Below, piece by piece: positions 17,969 through 39,683 of a DNA stretch of 64,000 bases. Each line of letters starts with the position of its first letter. Positions within the stretch are counted from its first letter, which is position 1. The position numbers and the translations under genes are program-made. The notes below the pieces were generated by a model that saw only the letters and a program-made list of their open reading frames with translations, had not been told where the DNA came from and made no database searches. The stretch lies in contig OZ244197.1 of assembly GCA_965216785.1 (NCBI GenBank), positions 2,208,001 to 2,272,000 of the forward strand, in the 5' to 3' direction. This DNA is from Thermodesulfobacteriota bacterium (GTDB lineage Bacteria; Desulfobacterota_D; UBA1144; Nemesobacterales; UBA2774).

Positions 17969-18847
17969 ATGCTCCTTAATTTTCTGGCCCTGGTTTACGT
18001 ATCCATTGCCTGGGGCTCAGCATTCGTACTGATAAAATTCGCTGAAGAAACTATAGCGCCATTGACCGTGCAGGCGGGTCGGTGCACCATAGGCTTCCTG
18101 GCACTTCTTATTCTTTCGCTCGCGCTGAGGCGGGATATCGCGGGGCACGCGAAGTACTGGTTCGCGTTTCTTGTGTTCGCTATATTGGGAATAGTGTTTC
18201 TTTGGATTACGGTCGCGTTTGGAGAGAAGTACATATCCGCAGGGCTCGCGACCGTGATGGTTACCGTGTCGCCCCTGGTCACTTTCATAATAACTGTATT
18301 TATCACAAGAACTGAGAAATTCAGCATTACCGGTATCTTTGGGCTCGCTTTAGGTGTGGCGGGGCTTGTGCTGGTTGTGGGGATTAAGAATATTTCCGGC
18401 GGAAGCTCGATACTTATGGGCTCGCTTTTAATTATCGCAGGATTCAGCGTGTTCGCCGTAAACGGCATACTGGCGCCGAGGCTGGCAAGCGGTACGGACC
18501 CGATCGCTTCAAGCGCTTACTATACAGGGATGGCGACTGTTTTCTTATGGATATTCGCGCTAATATTCGAGAGTCCGCTCAAAACTCACCTTACACCGGC
18601 CAACTCTGCGGCGGAGATCGTTATGGGCGTGTTCAGCTTCGCAAGCGGCTTCGTCGTTTATTACTGGCTGCTTAACAGGGCCGGGGCGTTTTTTTCCTCA
18701 ATGACTTTTTACCTGATGCCGATCGTGGGAATAGTCGGAGGGTTTCTTATGTTCAGGGAGAAGATAACCGTAACTCAAGTCGCCGGAATCCTGGTCGTTT
18801 TTGCCGGTGTGTATTTGATAAACAGGGCGAAGTTTAAAGAGGGTTAA
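17969..18847 (+). CDS. EamA/DMT transporter (type A)
   Basis: About 10 TM segments; WGSAFVLIKF, ISAGLA, YLMPIVG. Confidence 0.9.
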   Translation: MLLNFLALVYVSIAWGSAFVLIKFAEETIAPLTVQAGRCTIGFLALLILSLALRRDIAGHAKYWFAFLVFAILGIVFLWITVAFGEKYISAGLATVMVTVSPLVTFIITVFITRTEKFSITGIFGLALGVAGLVLVVGIKNISGGSSILMGSLLIIAGFSVFAVNGILAPRLASGTDPIASSAYYTGMATVFLWIFALIFESPLKTHLTPANSAAEIVMGVFSFASGFVVYYWLLNRAGAFFSSMTFYLMPIVGIVGGFLMFREKITVTQVAGILVVFAGVYLINRAKFKEG

Positions 18848-18849
18848 AG

Positions 18850-19731
18850 ATGGCGAAGAATTTTGTAGTGCTACTGTACGTGGCGGGCGTATGGGCTTTG
18901 GCAATAGCGTTTATAAAATTTGAGGAAGCGGTGATTCCGCCTATAACTATTATGGCGGGGCGGGCGCTTTTAGCGTTTCTGACTCTATTTGTCGCTTCAC
19001 TGATAATGAAGAAGGACCTTCGGGGAAATGTTAAGCATATATGGCATTTTCTGGTCTTCGCTATACTGGGGATTACGCTTCTTTGGGTGGGGCTTGCTTT
19101 CGGGCAGGAGTATATATCCGTAGGGCTCGCCTCTGTACTTGTTACCACGCTGCCGCTGATTACATTTGTAATACTGGTGCTGATCCTGCGCCAGCAGCCT
19201 TTCAGAATTGTCGGATTCGCCGGGCTGTTGATAGGGTTTTTCGGGATACTGCTGGTTATAGGAATAGAGAAAGTCCTGCAAGGCGGCTCAACAATGCTGG
19301 GGGTTGTGCTGATAGGCGGCGGGTTCGTGTGTCTTGCGATTAACGGGATATTGGCGGCAAAGTGGGCGAGGGGGATTGACCCCGTAATTACGACTACATA
19401 TTTTCTGGGACTCGGCGCGGTTTTTTTGATCGCGTTCGCGTTTATATTTGAGAGTCCGTTGAAGACTCCATGGTCCGCCGATAACATTCTCTCGGAGCTT
19501 GCGCTCGGGGTGGTATGCACCGCCAGCGGGTATTTTGGGTATTACTATCTGCTTCGGAATTCCGGGGCGTATTTTACTTCTTTTATTTTCTATTTCATCC
19601 CTGTATTCGGACTGGCAGTCGGTTATATTGCATTTCACGAGAGGGTGACAATTGTTCAGATTGTCGGTGTAGTGCTTGTTTTAGCCGGGGTGTATTTGAT
19701 TAACCGAAAGGGGGCTGAGAAGAAAGGGTGA
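18850..19731 (+). CDS. EamA/DMT transporter (type B)
   Basis: About 10 TM segments; SGYFGYYYLL, YFIPVFG. Confidence 0.9.
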   Translation: MAKNFVVLLYVAGVWALAIAFIKFEEAVIPPITIMAGRALLAFLTLFVASLIMKKDLRGNVKHIWHFLVFAILGITLLWVGLAFGQEYISVGLASVLVTTLPLITFVILVLILRQQPFRIVGFAGLLIGFFGILLVIGIEKVLQGGSTMLGVVLIGGGFVCLAINGILAAKWARGIDPVITTTYFLGLGAVFLIAFAFIFESPLKTPWSADNILSELALGVVCTASGYFGYYYLLRNSGAYFTSFIFYFIPVFGLAVGYIAFHERVTIVQIVGVVLVLAGVYLINRKGAEKKG

Positions 19732-19745
19732 AAGAATTTGAGTGA

Positions 19746-19821
19746 TCACCCCCATCCTGACCTTCCCCCCTCAAGGGGGAAGGGAATAGAGGATTAGATC
19801 CTGAAACAAGTTCAGGATGAC
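19746..19821. repeat. REP-like palindrome pair
   Basis: TCACCCCCATCCTGACCTTCCCCCCTCAAGGGGGAAGGG and GATCCTGAAACAAGTTCAGGATGAC; related copies at 21967, 23857, 23891 and 58462. Confidence 0.8.
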
Positions 19822-19825
19822 AATA

Positions 19826-20704
19826 ATGGTTAAAAACTTAATATTACTGATCTATTTGGGAGTGGTTTGGGGCGCCGGGTTTACGTTTATAAAGTTCGGG
19901 CTAAGAGATATGGGGCCGGTTACCGAGATGGCCGTGCGCTCTGTGATCGCATTCCTCGCTCTACTGATAATCTCGATAGTCTTAAAAAAAGATATTAAAG
20001 GTCACGCGAAGTACTGGTTCCCATACCTAATATTCGCGGTGCTCGGGATAGTGACGCTTTGGCTTGCGGACGCGTTCGGGATGGAATACATAACAGCGGG
20101 GCTCGGTTCTGTGATGGTTGCTGTCGCGCCGCTCGTTACCTTCATTATCACAGCGTTCATCTTGAGAGAGGACCGGGTGACCGTACTGAACGTTCTCGGT
20201 CTTTTGGTCGGGGTGCTCGGGCTCGTGCTGGTGGTCGGGATAGATCAGATAGTGGCGGGGGGTACGGTGATCATCGGCGTACTGATTGTAGCCGGCGGGT
20301 TCGTCATTTTCGCGATAAACGGCGTCATAGCCCCAAGGCTGGTGAAAGACGCAGACCCATTGGTTTCCGCGACTTACTTCATCGGGTTTGGATGTGTAAT
20401 TTTACTAATTATCGCATTCATACGGGAGGCTCCTTTAAGCGTCAAGATTACGGAAGACGTGATTATCAGCGAGCTTGGGCTTAGCCTGGTGTCCACGGCT
20501 AGCGGGTTTGTAGTCTTCTATTATCTTCTGGATAAGGCCGGGGCCTTATTTACTTCTACAGTCTTTTATCTCATGCCCGTTTTCGGAATGCTGAGCGGAA
20601 TTGTCTTCCTGGGTGACAGGATCGACGTTACTCAGGCAATTGGAATCGGGGTGGTGCTTTTGGGTATATATATGATTAATAGAGAAAAGTTCAGGAAGGA
20701 GTGA
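19826..20704 (+). CDS. EamA/DMT transporter (type A')
   Basis: Paralog of 17969-18847 (GHAKYWF, APRL, SGFVV.Y.LL); the ATG at 19817 lies inside the REP, so 19826 is preferred. Confidence 0.9.
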   Translation: MVKNLILLIYLGVVWGAGFTFIKFGLRDMGPVTEMAVRSVIAFLALLIISIVLKKDIKGHAKYWFPYLIFAVLGIVTLWLADAFGMEYITAGLGSVMVAVAPLVTFIITAFILREDRVTVLNVLGLLVGVLGLVLVVGIDQIVAGGTVIIGVLIVAGGFVIFAINGVIAPRLVKDADPLVSATYFIGFGCVILLIIAFIREAPLSVKITEDVIISELGLSLVSTASGFVVFYYLLDKAGALFTSTVFYLMPVFGMLSGIVFLGDRIDVTQAIGIGVVLLGIYMINREKFRKE

Positions 20705-20708
20705 AGCT

Positions 20709-21593
20709 TTGCTATTTAACGTCATTTTACTCTTATACATCGCGTGCGTCTGGGCGTTTACGTTCATATTCGTTAAGGTCGAGGAAGTCGCGAATGTGGG
20801 GCCGTTAACTATAATCGCGGGGCGCGCAATTATAGCATTTCTGTGCCTTTTTATAGCTTCACTCATACTTAAAAAAGACCTTCTGGGGAATTTTAAGCAC
20901 ATTGGGAAGTTCTTGATTTTTACTCTTCTCGGTATAGTGGGCCTTTGGGTGACGCTGTCTGAAGGTCAGGAGTATATAAACGCGGGGCTTGCGTCCGTAA
21001 TGGTTACAACGGTGCCGCTTCTGACTTTTATAATCCTGGTATTCGTGCTGAGGGACGAGAGGTTTAGCTGGGTCGGCGTGGGCGGTCTTGTGCTTGGTTT
21101 TATCGGCATAGTGCTTGTGGTCGAGCTAAAGAACATCCTTGCCGGAGGGACGACAGCCGGGGGGTTTTTACTGATTGGATCAGGCTTTGTCATGTTCGCG
21201 GTAAGCGGCATACTGATCGGCAGGTGGGCAAGGAACATAGACCCTGTAGTATCAACGACATACCTTCTGGGCCTAGGCGGGATTATTCTCCTCGCGCTGG
21301 CATACATCTTCGAAAGCCCGCTTACATTCCCGATTACAAAGAAGAACGTCTTGAGTGAGCTTGGGCTGGGAATTCTTTCCACGGCGAGCGGGTATTTCGG
21401 TTATTACTACCTTCTTCATAAGGCCGGTACATACTTTTCAACATTTATATTCTATTTCATCCCCGTGTTCGGGCTGCTCGCCGGGTATCTGGTGCTGGGT
21501 GAGATGGTGAACATGTCCCAGATACTGGGAGTTCTGTTAATCATCAGCGGGGTTTATGTTATTAATTGGGAGAAGAGGAGGGGGAAGGGGTAG
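20709..21593 (+). CDS. EamA/DMT transporter (type B')
   Basis: Paralog of 18850-19731 (DL.GN.KHI, WAR.IDPV, SGYFGYYYLL). Confidence 0.9.
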   Translation: MLFNVILLLYIACVWAFTFIFVKVEEVANVGPLTIIAGRAIIAFLCLFIASLILKKDLLGNFKHIGKFLIFTLLGIVGLWVTLSEGQEYINAGLASVMVTTVPLLTFIILVFVLRDERFSWVGVGGLVLGFIGIVLVVELKNILAGGTTAGGFLLIGSGFVMFAVSGILIGRWARNIDPVVSTTYLLGLGGIILLALAYIFESPLTFPITKKNVLSELGLGILSTASGYFGYYYLLHKAGTYFSTFIFYFIPVFGLLAGYLVLGEMVNMSQILGVLLIISGVYVINWEKRRGKG

Positions 21594-21765: not shown

Positions 21766-21970
21766 TTCTCTTCTTTTGAATGATCAAAAGAAGCAAAAAT
21801 CACCCTCCCAGGCATGAATGACGCTAATAATGAATTACGCAAGTTAAAGTTCACAATTCGGCCCCAGCCCGTGTGAACTTTTTAACACTTACGTTCTTCA
21901 TTTTCTTAACGCTATTCATGCATGTCGGGAAGATTAATACAAAAGCAAATACAAAGACAAAAGATTAGAT
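21766..21970 (+). repeat. Dispersed structured element, copy 1 (candidate ncRNA/MITE)
   Basis: TTCTTTTG-AATGAT-CAAAAGAAGCAAAAATCACC head, long interrupted stem, TTTTCTTAACGCT, GGGAAGAT; homologous to 22839, 24455 and 39386. Confidence 0.85.
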
Positions 21971-22026
21971 TCTGAAACGATACTGAATAGATCCCGGATC
22001 AAGTCCGGGACAAGGTTCAGAATGAC
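21967..22026. repeat. Nested REP palindromes
   Basis: GATTCTGAAAC...GTTCAGAATGAC enclosing GATCCCGGATCAAGTCCGGGAC. Confidence 0.75.
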
Positions 22027-22071
22027 ACTGCCAAGAATGGATGGGGAATAGAGATAAAGGGGGTAGTAGAA

Positions 22072-22323
22072 GTGGATAATTTTTATATAGCTTTTGCGGT
22101 GTATTTGAATTTGATTTTTGTGGCGGCGAAGATTTGGGACAAGATCGGCTGGTCGTGGTTTTGGGTGATGACGCCGCTGATTGTCCTTACCGTGATCGGC
22201 GCTGTAGCGGCTACGGGGCAGGCCGCAAAGAAGAAAGAGCTTCGGGGAAACCTGGTGCAGAACCTTCAAACGCTGAGGGAGATGGTGGAAAACTCGAAGT
22301 CGAGGAGCGGGGACAAACATTGA
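22072..22323 (+). CDS. Small phage-type membrane protein
   Basis: LIFVAAKIWDKIGWSWFWVMTPL resembles the K..G.I.WSWWWV.SP.W small membrane proteins common in phages; adjacent to terminase genes. Confidence 0.65.
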   Translation: MDNFYIAFAVYLNLIFVAAKIWDKIGWSWFWVMTPLIVLTVIGAVAATGQAAKKKELRGNLVQNLQTLREMVENSKSRSGDKH

Positions 22324-22793
22324 TAAAGAGCTCGGGGAGACAGCTCATTTATCAACACATCCAGGAAGCCCTGCTGCATTACTCACGATACAAACGCGGA
22401 GAAGGTGTACCGCACCTGTTGAGAGCCTATCTGGAAACGCTCGAAGAGCAGTCCGTTGTAGCAAACTACGTGCTCGGGCTTAAGCTGCTGGAGCACAAGG
22501 CCGTGACGATGTACCTGGACGGGAAGCGTGTGCGGGTGATACGGAAGGCTGAGGTATTCAAGAAGAATGATGTATCACTTACACAGATACGGGTGTGGAT
22601 TTACGGCGACCGTGAGCAGTTCGGGCTTGTGAACACGATGTTCGGGGTGTTTATGCGCCAGGCCAGTTTTTGCCCGTTCTGTCATGACCAGAAGCGCTGG
22701 GGAGACGGGGGGTATCAGAAGCGTCTTCACGGGAGCGTGTGTCCGCATAGGGAGATGTGGGAGGAGGAGAGGGAGGCTGAGTGTGATGCGTAA
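22320..22793 (+). CDS. Phage-related hypothetical protein with C-terminal CxxC..H..C motif
   Basis: TTG start overlapping the upstream stop (TTGA); CPFCHD...HGSVCPH. Confidence 0.55.
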   Translation: MIKSSGRQLIYQHIQEALLHYSRYKRGEGVPHLLRAYLETLEEQSVVANYVLGLKLLEHKAVTMYLDGKRVRVIRKAEVFKKNDVSLTQIRVWIYGDREQFGLVNTMFGVFMRQASFCPFCHDQKRWGDGGYQKRLHGSVCPHREMWEEEREAECDA

Positions 22794-22838
22794 CCTAGAT
22801 TGCTACAATGTGCATGCAATCTGACAATATGAAATCAT

Positions 22839-23010
22839 TTCTTCTTTTGCATGATCAAAAGAAGCAAAAATCACCGGCTAGGTAGAAATGACGCTAAAAG
22901 TTAATTATTACGGCTAAAGTTCACAATTCTACCCACACCCCGTGTGAGCTTTTTAACGCCGTCCTAATCAACTTTCTTAACGCTATTTCCACATGCCGGG
23001 AAGATTAAAG
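22839..23010 (+). repeat. Dispersed structured element, copy 2
   Basis: Same head, inner AAGTTCACA/TGTGAGCTT stem, CTTAACGCT and GGGAAGATTAA; directly upstream of the terminase small subunit. Confidence 0.85.
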
Positions 23011-23036
23011 GCTACTACAACAACATAAAACAAAAG

Positions 23037-23696
23037 ATGAAAGAGATCGTTGAAAGGAAGGAGTGGGAGAAGAGGGGGAGTGAGACGGGGAAGGCGTATG
23101 AGGGGTTTCGCGTTTACCGGGACATGGGGCCTGCGAGGAGTTTGTCCGCCGCCGCATCGCATGTCGGCAAGTCACTCAGGCTTTTCAAGAAGTGGTCTAC
23201 CGTGCACGGCTGGGTGAAGAGGGCCGAGGCTTATGATGAGTATATGGAGCACCGCTCCCGGGACGTGGTGGAGCGAAAGCTCGAAGACGTAAACCACGCT
23301 CACCTGGATTTGGCGAAGAGCGCGCGCGAGTCTGTGATGGTGCCGCTGCAGGCTCTCCTCAAGAGGATAGAGAAGATAAACGAGGACGGGAATTTTTCGG
23401 CTGAAGAGTTTGAGAATATCCCGGTGGATAAGCTGATTAATATCGCCCGACCTTATGTGAAGCTTGCGCTCGATGTGATTAAGCTCGAAAGGTTACTGTA
23501 CGGGCTGCCGACCCAGACGATTAAGACAGAGGGGACGATAGGGCACGAGGTGAGCCACGACATCAGGGTCGTGAATGAATTTATCGAATCGCTGCCGGAA
23601 GAGGAGCTGCTGCGGATTGTCAGAGACTCGAAAAAACAAAGCGCTAAAGAAAACGGATCCGCTGAGCAAGTACCTGCTGGGCCGGGCAAAGGATAG
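23037..23696 (+). CDS. Putative phage terminase small subunit
   Basis: ETGKAYEGFRVYRDMGPARSL...WSTVHGWVKRAEAYD N-terminal HTH-type region, coiled coil, overlaps a terminase large-subunit start. Confidence 0.7.
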   Translation: MKEIVERKEWEKRGSETGKAYEGFRVYRDMGPARSLSAAASHVGKSLRLFKKWSTVHGWVKRAEAYDEYMEHRSRDVVERKLEDVNHAHLDLAKSARESVMVPLQALLKRIEKINEDGNFSAEEFENIPVDKLINIARPYVKLALDVIKLERLLYGLPTQTIKTEGTIGHEVSHDIRVVNEFIESLPEEELLRIVRDSKKQSAKENGSAEQVPAGPGKG

Positions 23697-23871
23697 CCTG
23701 CTCACCTACACCGAGCTTACTTACCCGAAATACAGGGCCAACTGGCACCACGAGCTGATAATCGAGCGCCTGGACTCGGTCGCAAAGGGGGATATCCGGA
23801 GGCTGATGATCCTGGTGCCGCCGCGCTACGCTCGCAATGACGACTTTGAAAGATGGGATTCCGGGTCGTAG
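23617..23871 (+). pseudogene. Truncated phage terminase large subunit (N-terminal fragment)
   Basis: YPKYRANWHHELIIERLDSVAKGDIRRLMILVPPR matches the N-terminus preceding the PPRHGKS Walker A; sequence switches to REP DNA at 23820 and stops at 23871. Confidence 0.8.
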
Positions 23872-23985
23872 CCCGGAATGACTTATATGTTCACCCCCAT
23901 CCTTTATCCTTCCCCCTGAAATGGGGAGGAGAAAGAAAGGTTAACTAATCCCCCTTTATTCCCCCTTTGCGAAAGGGGGAGATGT
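23820..23985. repeat. Cluster of REP-like palindromes
   Basis: GCCGCGCTACGCTCGCAATGAC; GATTCCGGGTCGTAGCCCGGAATGAC; TCACCCCCATCC..TTCCCCCT; AATCCCCCTTTATTCCCCCTTTGCGAAAGGGGGA. Confidence 0.8.
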
Positions 23986-23991
23986 TGTTGG

Positions 23992-24399
23992 TTATGAGAA
24001 GTGTTTGTAGAGGGTTAGAGCGATGAGGGCGGTGGAGAGTATGAGCAAGATGTTTCGGAATGAGACGCCCAGGATGGCGCGCCGGGTCTGCGGTATGTCG
24101 TATGGCGAGACGATGTTGTGCTCGCCTATGAGCTGAATGGCTTTTGGTGAGGCGAGCGGGATCATGGAGTTACTTTCACATTTGGGGCAGACGCAGGATT
24201 TGATTTTGTACCTGGTGATGGTGTAAAAGAGCGCTATGAAGAATATGATGGAGGCCGGAAACCAGAGGTCTGTGTAGAAAGCTCCGAGCAGCGCGAAGAA
24301 GAATGCCAGGCCCCAGAGGGTGAATTCGGTTTTGAAATTGCCGTAGGAGCTGGAGGCTTCCTCGCCGATGTAGAAGCATTGGGTGCAAAGTTTTTTCAT
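23992..24399 (-). CDS. Membrane protein with two CxxC (zinc-ribbon-like) motifs
   Basis: Start MKKLCTQC at 24399; two TMs, CPKCES, C-terminal TM; the upstream ORF extension lies in the repeat. Confidence 0.7.
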   Translation of the reverse strand: MKKLCTQCFYIGEEASSSYGNFKTEFTLWGLAFFFALLGAFYTDLWFPASIIFFIALFYTITRYKIKSCVCPKCESNSMIPLASPKAIQLIGEHNIVSPYDIPQTRRAILGVSFRNILLILSTALIALTLYKHFS

Positions 24400-24454
24400 T
24401 GTTATTAGGATACCCGGCTTCGTTTGCAACTTCGCCACAGGTAGTTTTAATACT

Positions 24455-24662
24455 TTCTCTTCTCTTGCATGATCAAAAGAAGCAAAAATCACCGACGGTA
24501 CGTAAATAACTAAAAATAGCTTATTCAAACGAAACTTCACAATTCCACCCACACCCCGTGTGAAGTTATAGACGCTTTCATTGCGCAATTTTCTTAACAT
24601 TATTTGCGTAATGTCGGAAGCTTAAAGACAAAAGCAAATACAAAGACAAAAAGATGAGATTC
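24455..24662 (+). repeat. Dispersed structured element, copy 3
   Basis: Same head; AACTTCACA/TGTGAAGTT inner stem; shares the tail ACAAAAGCAAATACAAAGACAAAA with copy 1. Confidence 0.85.
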
Positions 24663-24694
24663 AGTATCGGAGTCTGGGATGACTGCGTAAGGAT

Positions 24695-24768
24695 GAGATT
24701 GCCGCGCTATGCTCGCAATGACAATTAATTACTAATCCTCCCTAACCCTCCTTTGCGAAAGGAGGGGA
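24695..24768. repeat. REP-like palindromes
   Basis: GAGATTGCCGCGCTATGCTCGCAATGAC and AATCCTCCCTAACCCTCCTTTGCGAAAGGAGGGG. Confidence 0.8.
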
Positions 24769-24781
24769 TAAAAAGGCAACT

Positions 24782-25170
24782 CTGTGGTTTTGGGGGTGTG
24801 CCGGAGGTTGGTGAATGGACCCCCGGCACGGCGTAATGAAATAACACAACTTGTGTATTTATTGCGGTATGGTCACTTCTATGGTGACGTCTTCAATGGG
24901 GAAGTTGATACCATTTTCAACTATGATGTCTATTCCCTCGTCTGAATACACCGGAACCATGGACCTGCTGCCATAGCATCTATTGCAACTATCTTCATAA
25001 GATATTGCATACATTAGATTATCTGACGCAAATTCAAACATGCGGACCATGGAAAGCATGACCTCAACGCAGTTGTATCTGGTAGAATACTCAACCAGGA
25101 ACATGCTGGAAACAAGTAACGGCGCTGACCAAGTCATCCTTCTTTTATCGTGATCACCCAACCCAAACAG
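24782..25170 (+). ncRNA. Candidate large, highly structured non-coding RNA (unassigned)
   Basis: More than ten nested stems by eye; G-U pairs favour the + strand; no recognisable tmRNA, RNase P or intron motifs. Confidence 0.45.
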
Positions 25171-25172
25171 CT

Positions 25173-25751
25173 CTAGCTTGCGGGAGGGTTACAAATCTTA
25201 CAGTTATCGTGGTCATGATTATCTACCGAGAATTTTTCGTTAGTATCGAACCGGGCCCCGCAGCACTCTATGAACATTCCCTTTATCATTTCCCTTCCTC
25301 TCTGAACTCTCGACTTCAGCCCCGTGTACGAGAGTCCCATCCGCTCCGCCAAATCCTTTTGCTTAACCCCCTCTATATCGCTCAGTATGAGCGGCTCTCT
25401 ATATTTCTCGGGCAGCCTGTCTATAAATACGTTAAGGCAGTACAGGATGCCGCTTAAATTTTTATCTTCGCCGTTATCTTCTGAATATGAAATGTTCTCA
25501 TCGATCTCAGCGCCTCCCATGTCCTTCTTTCTATAGTAGTCCGTTATAGAATTCCGTACTATCGAGTAAATCCAAGGGGCGAGTTTTTTTTCGTCTTTAA
25601 GTGAGGCGAGGCTCTTGTGGATCTTGATGAATATCTCCTGCGTCAGATCGTCCACATCCTCTGGGCTCCGCACTTTCCCCATCAGATAGGCTCTGATCTT
25701 TTCTGAGAAATCCTCGTATATTCCGTTCATCTCATCTTGCGTCGCTTTCAT
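25173..25751 (-). CDS. sigZ: ECF RNA polymerase sigma factor, SigZ-type
   Basis: DDLTQEIFIKIH, WIYSIVRNSITDYYRK, LPEKYREPL..SDIEG.KQKDLA..GLSYTGLKSRVQRGR, ECC; C-terminal HDHDNCKIC. Confidence 0.88.
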   Translation of the reverse strand: MKATQDEMNGIYEDFSEKIRAYLMGKVRSPEDVDDLTQEIFIKIHKSLASLKDEKKLAPWIYSIVRNSITDYYRKKDMGGAEIDENISYSEDNGEDKNLSGILYCLNVFIDRLPEKYREPLILSDIEGVKQKDLAERMGLSYTGLKSRVQRGREMIKGMFIECCGARFDTNEKFSVDNHDHDNCKICNPPAS

Positions 25752-25827
25752 CTTTCCTACCTTATATATAAGGGTACACACTATATATATGTATTTTTAT
25801 TATAATGTGTACCCCGTTATTTTAAAC

Positions 25828-25932
25828 TTATCCGCAGCATGTAGAGCTTTCACACTTACACTCACAGCGGCACTCCGCTCCGCCGCAGTTCTCACACTGA
25901 CATTCACACTTTACTTTATTATCTTCACTCAT
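25828..25932 (-). CDS. Unannotated metallothionein-like Cys-rich peptide (34 aa, 10 Cys)
   Basis: RBS GGGAGGT; MSEDNKVKCECQCENCGGAECRCECKCESSTCCG*. Confidence 0.75.
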   Translation of the reverse strand: MSEDNKVKCECQCENCGGAECRCECKCESSTCCG

Positions 25933-25968
25933 TTCTGACCTCCCTGAATTTTTTTACTTACATATAGA

Positions 25969-25996
25969 TAGACGGGGGGAGGGTGAAAAAGACGCA
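25969..25996 (-). promoter_or_regulatory. Putative ECF-sigma promoter (TGCGTC-N16-CGTCTA)
   Basis: ECF-like -10 CGTC(TA) with a 16-nt spacer, 36 nt upstream of the Cys-rich peptide and sigZ. Confidence 0.55.
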
Positions 25997-26138
25997 AAGC
26001 ATATTGTAAGTGATATAAATCACAAGATAATACAGCGCAGGTTCCTTGGCTCAGTTTTTTTGCTATTGAAAAATAATTTGGTAATACCAGGGGTCTTCGG
26101 CTAAACTTTATTTTATCTAACAGCGGGAGGCAGTATAA

Positions 26139-26300
26139 ATGAAAAGAACATTACTTACTTTAGCTATAGCTCTGGGTCTCGCGTTTGGCAGCTTCGCTAT
26201 TTTCTCATCCGACTCCTTTGCGTGCGGAGCGGGAAAAGATAAAGGCGCGACTACCGAAGATACCACCCAGACAGACTCAAGCAGCTCAACAGAGTCATAA
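26139..26300 (+). CDS. Unannotated small secreted peptide (53 aa)
   Basis: RBS GGGAGG; MKRTLLTLAIALGLAFGSFAIFSSDSFA-CGAGKDKGATTEDTTQTDSSSSTES*; own terminator. Confidence 0.7.
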   Translation: MKRTLLTLAIALGLAFGSFAIFSSDSFACGAGKDKGATTEDTTQTDSSSSTES

Positions 26301-26323
26301 GAAGCATCTGCAATACAATTTAG

Positions 26324-26370
26324 AAAAAGGCCCTGGATTAGAACGATTGACTACTCAAGGGCCTTTTTTT
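26324..26370. terminator. Bidirectional terminator
   Basis: AAAAAGGCCCT...AGGGCCTTTTTTT between convergent genes. Confidence 0.75.
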
Positions 26371-26381
26371 ATATCCTATAG

Positions 26382-26780
26382 TTACCCTTCAATCTTAAAA
26401 ACCTTTTCGGGCTTTATTTTCATTTTAACCCTTACCTCGCCGGGCTGGCGGTGCGGGTATTCATCCAGTCCCAGATATTTCTTAGCAAGTTGATTAATAT
26501 GCTCGTCTGCATCATCGTGGGATTCTTGGGTCACTTTTCCCCTCACCATAGCCTGCTCATAATGGTTCTCTGAATTTGCGATCGCGACAGCGACGCGGCT
26601 GTCTTTACGCAGATTGTTTGTTTTCAGCCTGCCCTCCGCCGTGTTAATTACGATATTCTCGCCGTCCGAATCTACCCAGACCAGACTCACCTGCGGTGAG
26701 CCGTCCGGCATAACGGTCGCGACGGCCGCGAAGTTCTTGCCCTCGGTACATAGTTCATATACAAAGCTGTCTAGTGACAT
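26382..26780 (-). CDS. PPOX-class (F420-dependent-type) oxidoreductase
   Basis: ATVMPDGSPQVSLVWV, NTAEGRLKTNNLRKDSRVAV, LAKKYLG. Confidence 0.88.
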   Translation of the reverse strand: MSLDSFVYELCTEGKNFAAVATVMPDGSPQVSLVWVDSDGENIVINTAEGRLKTNNLRKDSRVAVAIANSENHYEQAMVRGKVTQESHDDADEHINQLAKKYLGLDEYPHRQPGEVRVKMKIKPEKVFKIEG

Positions 26781-26821
26781 AAGTCACCTCCGCCTTTTTT
26801 ACTTAAGATAATCCCGGATTT

Positions 26822-27586
26822 TTATCTTGCAATCCAGCCGCCGTCTACTGAGAGCATGTTCCCGGTCATAAACCCGATATTATCATCTACCAGGAAGAGT
26901 ATCGAATGAGCAATCTCCTCAGGCTGGCCGAGCCTTCCAACCGGGTGGAGCGATTTCAGGTACTGCTCGGCTGCTTCCCTGTCTTCCACTTTGCCGAAGA
27001 AATCCTCAACAATCATCGGAGTCTCTATAGCGCCCGGGCATATGGCGTTAACCCTGATTCCCTTGTCCGCGTACTCAAGCGCCATGCTCTTTGTAAGCTG
27101 TGTTACTGCGCCCTTTGACGCTACATAGGCCGCGAATCCCGGCATGCCTTTTAGCCCGACAATAGAGGAATTGTTCACAATCGCCCCGTAACCTTTTTCC
27201 AGCATATGAGGTATCGAATGCTTCGACATAAAGTAAGTGCCCTTTACGTTAATGTCGAAAGTCTTTTCCCATATTTCGGTATCGGTTTCATGGGTCCTAC
27301 CCGGCATCAATATCCCGGCGTTATTAAAAAGTATGTCCACGCCGCCGTATTTCCCGATCGTATAATCCACAGTAGATTTACAGTCTTCTTCATTAGACAC
27401 GTCGCACGCTATGTAGTCGATCGTCAGCCCGTTTGACGCAGCCTCTTCCTGAACTTCCTTTAACTTCTCCTCTCTTCTTCCGGTTATTACAACACTTGCG
27501 CCTTCTTTAGCGAAAAGAAGCGCGGTTTCCTTGCCGATTCCTGTTCCGCCCCCTGTGATAATGGCCGTTTTGCCTGATAACTTCAT
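26822..27586 (-). CDS. SDR family oxidoreductase
   Basis: TGGGTGIG, NNAG, YVASK, IRVNAICPG. Confidence 0.93.
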   Translation of the reverse strand: MKLSGKTAIITGGGTGIGKETALLFAKEGASVVITGRREEKLKEVQEEAASNGLTIDYIACDVSNEEDCKSTVDYTIGKYGGVDILFNNAGILMPGRTHETDTEIWEKTFDINVKGTYFMSKHSIPHMLEKGYGAIVNNSSIVGLKGMPGFAAYVASKGAVTQLTKSMALEYADKGIRVNAICPGAIETPMIVEDFFGKVEDREAAEQYLKSLHPVGRLGQPEEIAHSILFLVDDNIGFMTGNMLSVDGGWIAR

Positions 27587-27775
27587 GTATGCCTCCTGGT
27601 GTTTTGGTGTTTTTGTTTTCGATGACTATTAATTTTCAATAGATGCAGGCGGGCAGGAAAATCGTCTGCTTCGCTCGCTCTTGTTATAAAAACTACGATT
27701 ATTTGGAATTACGGACTAACCGGACCAAAAAAATTAATCTCTGGTAACTACAATTAGTATAAGGGGCTTCCCAAA

Positions 27776-28282
27776 CTAGTAAAGCCATTTAGAGTACTCG
27801 GGGTTTTCGTCTTTCATCTCACCGTATAGCCATACCATCCTGTCAAGGAACCAGGTTTTTCCCGCCACGACCAGCGCGAGGCCAAACAGCGTGGGCCACA
27901 CACTGAGCGTGTAAAGGCCCCATACGCAAAAAAGCGCGCCTATCATCGATACTGCGTTGAGGATTTTGATGATCCCACCATGGTGCTTGGGTACAGGCAC
28001 TTTATCTCGCGCTATCCATACGCGCTCTCCAAATACCGCTTTTGAGGCCCAGTTATCCGTAGAGCGGGGTTTTTTGAATATCCTGGGATTGATCCATACC
28101 CAGATTATTGACGCGGCGACAGGAGCAAGGCTCCACCAGCCTATCCACGCGCGGCTCCATATCGAGATTATGAGCAGCGGCAGAGTCAGATACCTCGTCC
28201 ATACGCTCCATGGGTTCGCGTGCCGCTCCCACACCTCGTCGGACATCTTGAATACTGATGCGATTTTGCTTTCAAGGCTCAT
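27776..28282 (-). CDS. Conserved membrane protein (DUF6653-like)
   Basis: WERHANPWSVWTR, WASKAVFGER.W, KTWFLDRMVWLY. Confidence 0.75.
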   Translation of the reverse strand: MSLESKIASVFKMSDEVWERHANPWSVWTRYLTLPLLIISIWSRAWIGWWSLAPVAASIIWVWINPRIFKKPRSTDNWASKAVFGERVWIARDKVPVPKHHGGIIKILNAVSMIGALFCVWGLYTLSVWPTLFGLALVVAGKTWFLDRMVWLYGEMKDENPEYSKWLY

Positions 28283-39385: not shown

Positions 39386-39683
39386 TATCTTCCGACATAC
39401 ATAAATAGCGTTAAGAAAATGCGGGCAGTGCCCGCAGACATAATGTTTCTACATTCCTAATAAGGTTCATGAGGACTTTATCTGCTTACCCTAACTCATA
39501 AGCCATGTAGAAACCGAATGAATGGACACTATGTGTCCGCGTTAAAAACCTTATACGTGGTGTGGGCGGAATTATAAGGATCATACAACTACATTCATTT
39601 TTAGCCTCATTTATGTGAAGGCGGTGATTTTTGTAATCTTTTAGTAATCCACACTTCGTGTGTGATCATGCAAAAGAAGAGAA
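39386..39683 (-). repeat. Dispersed structured element, copy 4 (expanded, inverted)
   Basis: Reverse complement: TTCTCTTCTTTTGCATGATC..AAAAATCACC..CCTTATA-ATTCCGCCCACACCACG-TATAAGG..TTTTCTTAACGCT..GTCGGAAGAT, with extra hairpins. Confidence 0.8.

What the first reader, a model, noticed from the sequence alone, without database searches (positions are those of the whole stretch)
21766..24662. Dispersed non-coding element family whose stems covary between copies
Seen: three + strand copies (21766, 22839, 24455) and an inverted fourth (39386-39683). Unpaired parts are conserved: the head TTCTTTTG-(C/A)ATGAT-CAAAAGAA-GCAAAAATCACC, the apical loop ATTC..CCC(A/C)....CG, TTTCTTAAC and GGAAG. Stem sequences change but keep pairing. 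Inner stem: AAGTTCACA/TGTGAACTT, AAGTTCACA/TGTGAGCTT, AACTTCACA/TGTGAAGTT, CCTTATA/TATAAGG. Outer stem: GCATGAAT/ATTCATGC, GAAAT/ATTTC, TACGTAAATAA/TTATTTGCGTA, ACATAAAT/ATTTATGT. Basal stem: TCCC/GGGA, CCGGC/GCCGG, CCGAC/GTCGG. The head-loop TGAT can pair with downstream ATCA (H-type pseudoknot). Inference: selection acts on RNA or ssDNA structure, so this is a multicopy structured ncRNA or a structure-recognised non-autonomous mobile element. From memory the head resembles Flavo-1-type Bacteroidetes repeats (unverified). No cognate transposase or RT is in the window.
Basis: partly seen in the sequence, partly recalled or inferred. Interest (0 to 1): 0.82.

Follow-up and report, generated by a model that had tools for sequence, protein, structure and literature searches.

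The report
Replication-oriented triplex-knot DNA repeat family
The four flagged stretches are copies of a 165-base repeat that sits between genes in three bacterial phyla and, in this host group, piles up around the replication terminus pointing towards it; its matched sequence changes predict a three-stranded knot plus a long hairpin, and it is likely selfish single-stranded DNA copied by an enzyme not yet found.

Summary
Confirmed and much larger than flagged: 16 copies in this Dadabacteria-like genome, up to ~100 candidates in relatives, full-length homologues in Bacteroidota and Fusobacteriota. Not Flavo-1; no Rfam match. In 147 members 95% of stem cells pair and 29 of 35 pairs show two-sided changes. 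New here: (1) the 5' pseudoknot covaries, and its A-rich linker mirrors the hairpin (T-A:A 282/282, C-G:G 11/13 over 70 related heads), the intrastrand-triplex (PIT/BoxC) signature; (2) two internal loops 20 nt apart in 130 of 146; (3) orientation follows the replichore, not the genes: 51 of 52 copies in one relative converge on the terminus, and the flip lies inside this window, between copies 3 and 4; (4) filled/empty sites and swapped internal modules. No Y1 transposase, RT, TnpB or IS110 in the host. Against one simple mechanism: polarity is reversed in two Bacteroidota genomes, the folded strand is undecided, and in Dadabacteria the triplex is only four triads. Best reading: REP/BIME-like non-autonomous ssDNA element (0.55). 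The scan saw a similar knot earlier on other DNA (e1-4433372).

The parts
21769..21932 (+). Copy 1 (core, no plug-in modules)
   Evidence: (E 3e-34 with model R1, which was built with it)
21769..21802 (+). Head of copy 1: hairpin, A-rich linker and loop-tail pairing (predicted triplex pseudoknot)
21806..21930 (+). Long hairpin of copy 1 with two internal loops (5' sides 21823 and 21843; 3' sides 21880-21888 and 21906-21912) and a C-rich apical loop
21968..22026 (-). Nested REP-like hairpins of the CGTC / Ssn-related-motif type behind copy 1
   Evidence: sequence; motif class from PMC11893778 passages
22840..23003 (+). Copy 2 (head 22840-22873)
23821..23882 (-). Two REP-like hairpins where the terminase large-subunit remnant breaks off
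24458..24620 (+). Copy 3 (head 24458-24491); last + copy before the polarity flip
24660..24768 (.). Cluster of small companion hairpin repeats behind copy 3
24000..28000 (.). GC-skew sign change, inferred replication terminus region, between the last + and first - copy
   Evidence: dnaA at 846 kb of G000
39389..39680 (-). Copy 4, first - copy after the flip; plug-in hairpin inside the knot (39643-39662) and a 118-nt three-hairpin module in the 3' arm (39421-39538)
22072..23871 (+). Context, not part of the element: decayed phage gene cluster (phrog_1374 gene, unknown ORF, terminase small subunit, N-terminal piece of terminase large subunit) into whose gaps copies 1-2 fall

Best explanation
This is a family of 165-base intergenic repeats whose copies come and go between related genomes and line up with the direction of DNA replication; it is likely a non-autonomous, REP/BIME-like mobile element that folds as single-stranded DNA at the replication fork and is copied by a trans-acting enzyme that has not been identified. 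Shown: copy number, covariation, filled and empty sites, module swapping at orthologous sites, replichore polarity, terminus pile-up in Dadabacteria. Inferred: the head folds as an intrastrand triplex locked by a pseudoknot; the two internal loops, about two DNA turns apart, are binding sites for a protein dimer; insertion or loss happens on the strand left single-stranded at the fork; recombination between copies exchanges the optional hairpin modules; only copies that keep the fold are propagated, which is why stems drift but stay paired.
For: Polarity: 51 of 52 model hits in G005 converge on 2.25-2.32 Mb, where skew flips and opposite dnaA; 14 of 16 copies in G000 fit, flipping within the window where skew flips; 83 of 84, 43 of 43 and 18 of 18 profile hits on the G-rich strand in three contig pieces. 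Independent of genes: flank orientations 16/15/10/16 in G013 and 5/6/4/4 in G022. Mobility: of 11 site pairs printed, 9 have the element in G001/G002 and not in G000 (two empty gaps only 9 and 15 bp), and 2 orthologous copies carry different modules. Triplex: 60 of 62 first free positions obey the mirror rule against 33 by permutation; linker equals upper stem minus one in 48 of 70 heads. A mirror repeat cannot be made by polymerase template switching (inference). [quoted passage not shown]
Against: No cognate enzyme: no Y1 transposase, RT, TnpB, IS110 or GIY-YIG found in G000 (92% complete), and no Y1, RT, TnpB or IS110 in G013, which holds the youngest, most numerous copies; 0 of 40 loci of such genes carry an element within about 1.5 kb. 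Polarity is reversed in two closed Bacteroidota genomes (13 of 13 hits, 7 loci) and copies are not piled at the terminus there. The folded strand is undecided (A.C 52 vs G.T 31 on the head-first strand; z-scores -5.8 vs -5.0). In Dadabacteria the third strand is just four A's, so the mirror rule is uninformative there; it is informative in other heads, among them two full-length members (L601, L708). No fixed target duplication or target motif. No excision circle seen (contigs only).
Confidence: 0.55

Rival explanations
1. A structured RNA read from the opposite strand, with a pyrimidine-motif triple-helix knot at its 3' end (as in telomerase RNA or ENE elements; recalled), either a stability element or a SINE-like retroelement inserted at forks.
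For: Class IV pyrimidine triplexes can form in RNA (PMC4666352); the opposite strand has the lower folding energy in 87 of 88 members as RNA and takes the A.C mismatches as G.U; a few Bacteroidota copies have 16-50 bp flank duplications.
Against: The energy gap vanishes in z-scores; orientation ignores transcription; no RT in G000, G005, G007, G013, G022; the loop that would cross the minor groove is 0-2 nt, short for A-form RNA (own knowledge).
Confidence: 0.2
2. A domesticated chromosome signal: polar sites around the terminus that slow forks or guide segregation through a host protein.
For: Convergent polarity and 51 of 52 copies in 275 kb of G005, 12 of 16 in 310 kb of G000; fixed 20-nt spacing of two sites; no mobile enzyme found; triplex motifs block polymerase in vitro (PMC4666352).
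Against: Not found in many complete relatives (0 hits in 57 of 81 phylum genomes); copy number runs from 1 to about 100; positions turn over within a genus; unrelated small repeats share the same polarity; reversed and scattered in Bacteroidota.
Confidence: 0.12
3. No selection on structure: template-switch correction of quasi-palindromes plus gene conversion keeps the stems paired.
For: Block changes of whole stems and near absence of wobble pairs; module swapping in place.
Against: Does not produce mirror covariation or the stem-linker length rule, conserved unpaired loops, or the 20-nt spacing across phyla, and does not create new insertions.
Confidence: 0.08
4. An attC-like recombination site of an unknown gene-cassette system.
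For: Same-strand copies every 1-5 kb with two protein-site-like loops and a variable tip; attC arrays are oriented by replication (PMC5371416).
Against: Genes between copies face both ways and are ordinary syntenic genes with empty sites in relatives; no tyrosine recombinase on the G013 contig with 68 heads.
Confidence: 0.05

Closest known systems
Intrastrand triplex repeats PIT / BoxC / TMECO, ITxF classes II and IV (Holder et al. 2015, PMC4666352; abstract and passages read)
   Same: Pyrimidine tract, purine tract, mirror third tract on one strand (class II on the head-first strand, class IV on the other); intergenic, multicopy, no relation to gene direction.
   Different: Only 4-5 triads in this family (ITxF asks for 6 or more); the hairpin loop also pairs with the tail (pseudoknot; the word has 0 hits in that paper's main text); fused to a 125-nt twin-loop hairpin; piles up at the terminus with replichore polarity (E. 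coli TMECOs lie nearer the origin; 'lagging' has 0 hits there).
REP / BIME / REPIN with RAYT (PMC6006769 abstract; PMC3733652 passages)
   Same: Intergenic, multicopy, mosaic assemblies of hairpin modules, covarying stems, patchy copy number.
   Different: 165 nt instead of 20-40; no GTAG/CGTC tag of its own; no Y1 transposase in the main hosts and none flanked by the element.
Ssn-related motifs (SRM/NTS) and Ssn GIY-YIG ssDNA nucleases (Chenal et al. 2025, PMC11893778; passages)
   Same: SRM-type hairpins lie near copies on the opposite strand (22 vs 2) and share their polarity; small GIY-YIG genes occur in most element-rich relatives.
   Different: They are separate 25-60 nt repeats; only about 7% of element ends have one within 250 nt by my strict rule, with no side preference; none of 12 GIY-YIG loci carries the element; none found in G000.
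IS200/IS605 ssDNA transposons (PMC5027513 passages)
   Same: Structure-recognised single strand, orientation tied to the fork, no target duplication.
   Different: No TnpA or TnpB, no paired left and right ends, no conserved target tetranucleotide seen.
Flavo-1 RNA (RF01705) and STAXI pseudoknot motif (Weinberg et al. 2010, PMC2864571; table, passages, supplement passages)
   Same: Orphan structured repeats; STAXI is a pseudoknot proposed to act as ssDNA or RNA.
   Different: No covariance-model match; Flavo-1 is a 76-nt single hairpin found beside, not in, the element.
Integron attC sites (PMC5371416; abstract and section 6)
   Same: Folded ssDNA with two protein sites and a variable tip; replication-linked orientation.
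   Different: No cassette structure, dispersed among ordinary genes, carries a knot.

Membership tests
Flavo-1 RNA (RF01705) | Match to the covariance model | tested here: not met
   0 matches in G000 at E<=10 (150 of 380 candidates scored); no overlap with the element in 7 loci
Any Rfam 15 family | Score at gathering threshold over the element | tested here: not met
   RF02421 matches only the flank of a head-bearing Burkholderiales repeat
Intrastrand triplex motifs (PIT/BoxC/ITxF) | Pyrimidine, purine and mirror tracts in class II/IV order | tested here: met
Intrastrand triplex motifs (PIT/BoxC/ITxF) | Triplex stem of at least 6 triads | tested here: not met
   4 triads in the window copies, 5-6 in Bacteroidota-type members, up to 10 in other heads
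Intrastrand triplex motifs (PIT/BoxC/ITxF) | Triplex formed by the oligonucleotide in vitro | not testable with these tools
   needs CD, UV melting, DMS
REP/BIME with RAYT | 20-40 bp palindrome with GTAG/CGTC-type tag | tested here: not met
   165-nt core, no such tag at its ends
REP/BIME with RAYT | Cognate Y1 transposase flanked by the repeat | tested here: not met
   PF01797 in 14 of 41 genomes but not G000, G007, G013, G019, G022; 0 of 8 Y1 loci carry it
REP/BIME with RAYT | Intergenic, multicopy, mosaic of modules | tested here: met
MITE of DDE type | Terminal inverted repeats and fixed target duplication | tested here: not met
   (one Burkholderiales head-bearing repeat is an inverted doublet)
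IS200/IS605 derivatives and omega RNAs | TnpA or TnpB in the genome | tested here: not met
   (TnpB domain 0 of 5 genomes); IscB not searched
IS110 bridge RNA | IS110 recombinase | tested here: not met
   PF02371 0 of 5 genomes
Retroelement (retron, group II, DGR, SINE-like) | Linked or co-occurring reverse transcriptase | tested here: not met
   PF00078 in 9 of 41, absent from the richest hosts tested; one DGR 1.5 kb from a copy in G036
Integron attC arrays | One-gene cassettes in one orientation with an adjacent integrase | tested here: not met
   IntI-specific profile not run
Non-coding RNA gene | Discrete transcript | not testable with these tools
   no RNA holder listed

The most novel reading that the evidence does not exclude
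A cross-phylum class of fork-coupled ssDNA elements recognised by three-dimensional shape (triplex pseudoknot plus two loops on one helix face) and moved by a host replication or repair protein rather than by any known transposase, which in Dadabacteria has built a convergent polar array around the replication terminus that may act on fork arrival.
Probability: 0.18. Interest if true: 0.87.

Novelty: new variant of a known kind. Interest (0 to 1): 0.63.

Why it matters
Intrastrand triplex repeats have been known in bacteria since the 1990s without a function or comparative proof of the fold. Here base triples, a stem-linker length rule and a pseudoknot covary across phyla inside a defined, mobile 165-nt unit, which gives testable oligonucleotides and a bait for the missing protein. 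The strict replichore polarity, with opposite sign in two phyla, makes the question of how transposase-less repeats spread directly testable, and in Dadabacteria it marks the terminus in draft genomes.

Tried and rejected
Rfam: nothing over the element; Flavo-1 rejected. Phage and plasmid collections: no match to copy 2. No RNA holder listed; the one RNA-guess run laid gave nothing; neither says anything on expression. No dif site found (3 weak matches, 0.74 expected), so the terminus rests on skew and dnaA. Clustering ORFs near elements gave no recurring mobility gene. An inverted pair in a viral contig (L636) flanks a Clp protease and a capsid-like gene, not a transposase. Four-helix-bundle (6 of 41) and DUF559 (18 of 41) genes do not track the element. 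Strand assignment by energy or wobble was inconclusive. The script was faulty and was replaced. A head pattern over five Bacteroidota genomes was too strict. K-turn, loop E and single-strand-origin motifs were considered from memory for the internal loop and dropped because the bases do not fit. Literature: ten searches found no description of this element; the library lacks most subscription papers, bioRxiv supplements are closed, and I did not compare against the ITxF tables, the TIR families of PMC3733652 or non-Rfam motifs of later RNA-motif surveys, so a prior listing is possible.
Full report
Observation. The four copies and all listed stems are present and the three short copies fold far better than shuffles. 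The window is G000:C1:2208001-2272000 of a one-contig 3.12-Mb genome, 92% complete. Record titles of pattern matches name Candidatus Dadabacteria and Thermodesulfobacteriota, so the host is taken as Dadabacteria-like. G000 has 16 copies with head and basal stem and 2 head-only fragments. BLAST finds copy 2 in 26 of 41 relatives, with up to 100-139 candidates in two; model R1 finds it in 24 of 81 phylum genomes, among them 15 of 17 other members of the family and 0 of 12 of the most distant family. R1, built from Dadabacteria only, hits flavobacterial loci full length at E 1e-12 to 1e-21, 10 of 15 genomes of that family and Ilyobacter. No Rfam family covers it; Flavo-1 does not.

(a) A 34-nt head: an 8-9 bp pyrimidine/purine hairpin, a 6-nt loop, a short linker of A's and 4 nt that pair with the loop. 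(b) A 125-nt imperfect hairpin: basal stem, second stem, two internal loops of one design (GC-TA-AA on the 5' arm, TT-YTNNAC-GC on the 3' arm), a third stem and a conserved apical loop. The 5' halves of the two loops are 20 nt apart in 130 of 146 members while the letters between change. Pair counts: 94.7% paired, 27 of 39 pairs with two-sided change on the MAFFT alignment; 95.0%, 29 of 35 on 147 model-aligned members; 0 of 500 shuffles; slid controls 39-47%. Relatedness inflates these, but changes span three phyla. (c) Optional hairpin modules plug in at junctions only: between the two knot stems, beside the basal stem, in the apical loop, in the 3' arm. Many end in C-NNN-G three-base loops, which suit DNA (own knowledge). 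In G013 each copy sits in a different mosaic of the same small modules, all in one polarity.

The head is a predicted triplex knot. Of these loci, 82 distinct heads had a hairpin extending beyond the fixed part and a loop of at most 9 nt; the rest were dropped. The linker mirrored the stem: T-A pairs faced A in 128 of 135, C-G pairs faced G in 35 of 39; at the first free position 60 of 62 against 33 by permutation. Over all loci, 70 distinct heads with a loop-tail pairing of 4 bp or more gave T:A 282 of 282, C:G 11 of 13, and a linker one base shorter than the upper stem in 48 of 70 (that search required two A's on each side, and many rows are kin). One base per pair is what a triple helix needs. 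Limits: most informative heads belong to other elements that share only this module; in the window's family the linker is AAAA; two full-length members (L601, L708) do show C:G. The scan noted such a knot before in Selenomonadaceae (e1-4433372), and other notes led me to Holder et al. 2015 (PMC4666352): the arrangement is their class II on the head-first strand (purine motif, which they say cannot form in RNA) and class IV on the other (possible in RNA or DNA). The triplex idea is therefore a known kind; the pseudoknot and the attached hairpin are not in the passages I searched. Energy and wobble counts do not decide the strand.

Orientation follows replication. In G005, 8 copies at 2.225-2.251 Mb are +, 43 at 2.320-2.500 Mb are -, one at 569 kb is an exception; dnaA is at 994 kb and skew flips near 2.26 Mb. 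In G000 12 copies from 1.64 to 2.23 Mb are +, those at 2.248 and 2.504 Mb are -, and two exceptions lie in locally positive skew; the window's skew flips at about 25 kb, between copies 3 and 4. Three contig pieces give 83 of 84, 43 of 43 and 18 of 18 profile hits (pieces, not copies) on the G-rich strand. Flanking genes face all ways in G013 and G022; in G021 and G005 they mostly run with the element because genes there lie on the leading strand. So in Dadabacteria the head-first strand is the lagging-strand template. Against generalising: in two closed Bacteroidota genomes, with rRNA (4 of 5 operons) and rplE on the G-rich strand, all 13 hits at 7 loci have the opposite polarity (two-sided p 0.016 on 7 loci) and are not at the terminus (skew sampled from 20 pieces of 20 kb each). 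This is unexplained; it could reflect insertion bias in one lineage and loss bias in the other, as for attC arrays (PMC5371416), but that is a guess.

Mobility. Twenty loci from G001, G002 and G009 were compared with G000. Of 11 pairs printed, 9 are filled in the relative and empty in G000 (two share one site); in two the empty gap is 9 and 15 bp against 360-420 bp. Two orthologous copies share flanks but differ in modules, so copies are rewritten in place. No fixed duplication: 27 of 160 ends had a 13-nt repeat on both sides against 3 of 160 controls, mostly other repeat modules or tandem copies; a few Bacteroidota copies have longer flank duplications. Copies 1-3 lie in the gaps of a decayed phage cluster that is whole in G021.

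Missing enzyme. Y1 transposase 14 of 41 and RT 9 of 41 genomes, neither in G000, G007, G013 or G022; TnpB and IS110 0 of 5; tyrosine recombinases 5-15 per genome, none on the richest G013 contig; small GIY-YIG genes are common in relatives but none was found in G000; 0 of 40 loci of these and two other gene families hold an element. Neighbouring small hairpins resemble Ssn-related motifs, targets of ssDNA-only GIY-YIG nucleases (PMC11893778, passages); they share the polarity, on the opposite strand 22 to 2, but are not tied to one end. Other DDE, HNH, Y2 and serine families were not searched.

Verdict. Most likely a non-autonomous, structure-recognised ssDNA element of the REP/BIME kind, coupled to the fork (0.55); rivals are an opposite-strand RNA (0.2), a domesticated terminus signal (0.12), mutational upkeep alone (0.08) and a cassette site (0.05). 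It works like REP/IS200-type ssDNA elements and carries a PIT/BoxC-type motif, but fails membership of each. Ten paper searches found no description (listed under Tried and rejected, with their gaps). Papers seen: PMC2864571 (table, passages, supplement passages), PMC11893778, PMC3733652, PMC5027513 (passages), PMC5371416 (abstract, section 6), PMC6006769 (abstract), PMC4666352 (abstract, passages). New variant of a known kind; interest 0.63.

Noticed in passing
window 22072-24378; L031-L033 (G021:C1 239-272 kb): The window holds the decayed end of a phage structural gene cluster that is complete in G021 (terminase, portal, scaffold, major head, tail, endolysin) at the same place beside the EamA genes, in another genus: an old, possibly domesticated (GTA-like) prophage at the terminus, with a copy of the element in most gene gaps.
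   Followed up: partly
L626-L640: Bacteroidota-type prophage contigs also carry the element between structural genes; prophages may be neutral landing ground or vehicles.
   Followed up: partly
L580 4347-7600 (G036:C5): A diversity-generating retroelement (RT, Avd-like gene, template repeat, apparently broken target gene) 1.5 kb from one copy.
   Followed up: no
L600 2507-3011: In Caballeronia the triplex head closes both ends of a 500-bp inverted doublet, up to 18-19 places per replicon; Rfam RF02421 matches its flanks, so that sRNA entry may be part of a repeat.
   Followed up: partly
G000 1.92-2.63 Mb; window 21968-24768: Ssn-type hairpins and other small repeats share the replichore polarity and terminus clustering, with the Ssn-type strand on the leading-strand template, although no GIY-YIG gene was found in G000.
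   Followed up: partly
L584-L589 (G005 2.27-2.39 Mb): GC skew is very strong next to the terminus (about -0.2) and, in G000, strongest in the 300 kb before it.
   Followed up: no
L591, L592, L593: Tandem arrays of the element with periods of about 320, 640 and 270 bp in Bacteroidota.
   Followed up: no
window 17969-21593: Four EamA-like transporter genes in tandem (two scanned); G021 has an element between the first two.
   Followed up: no
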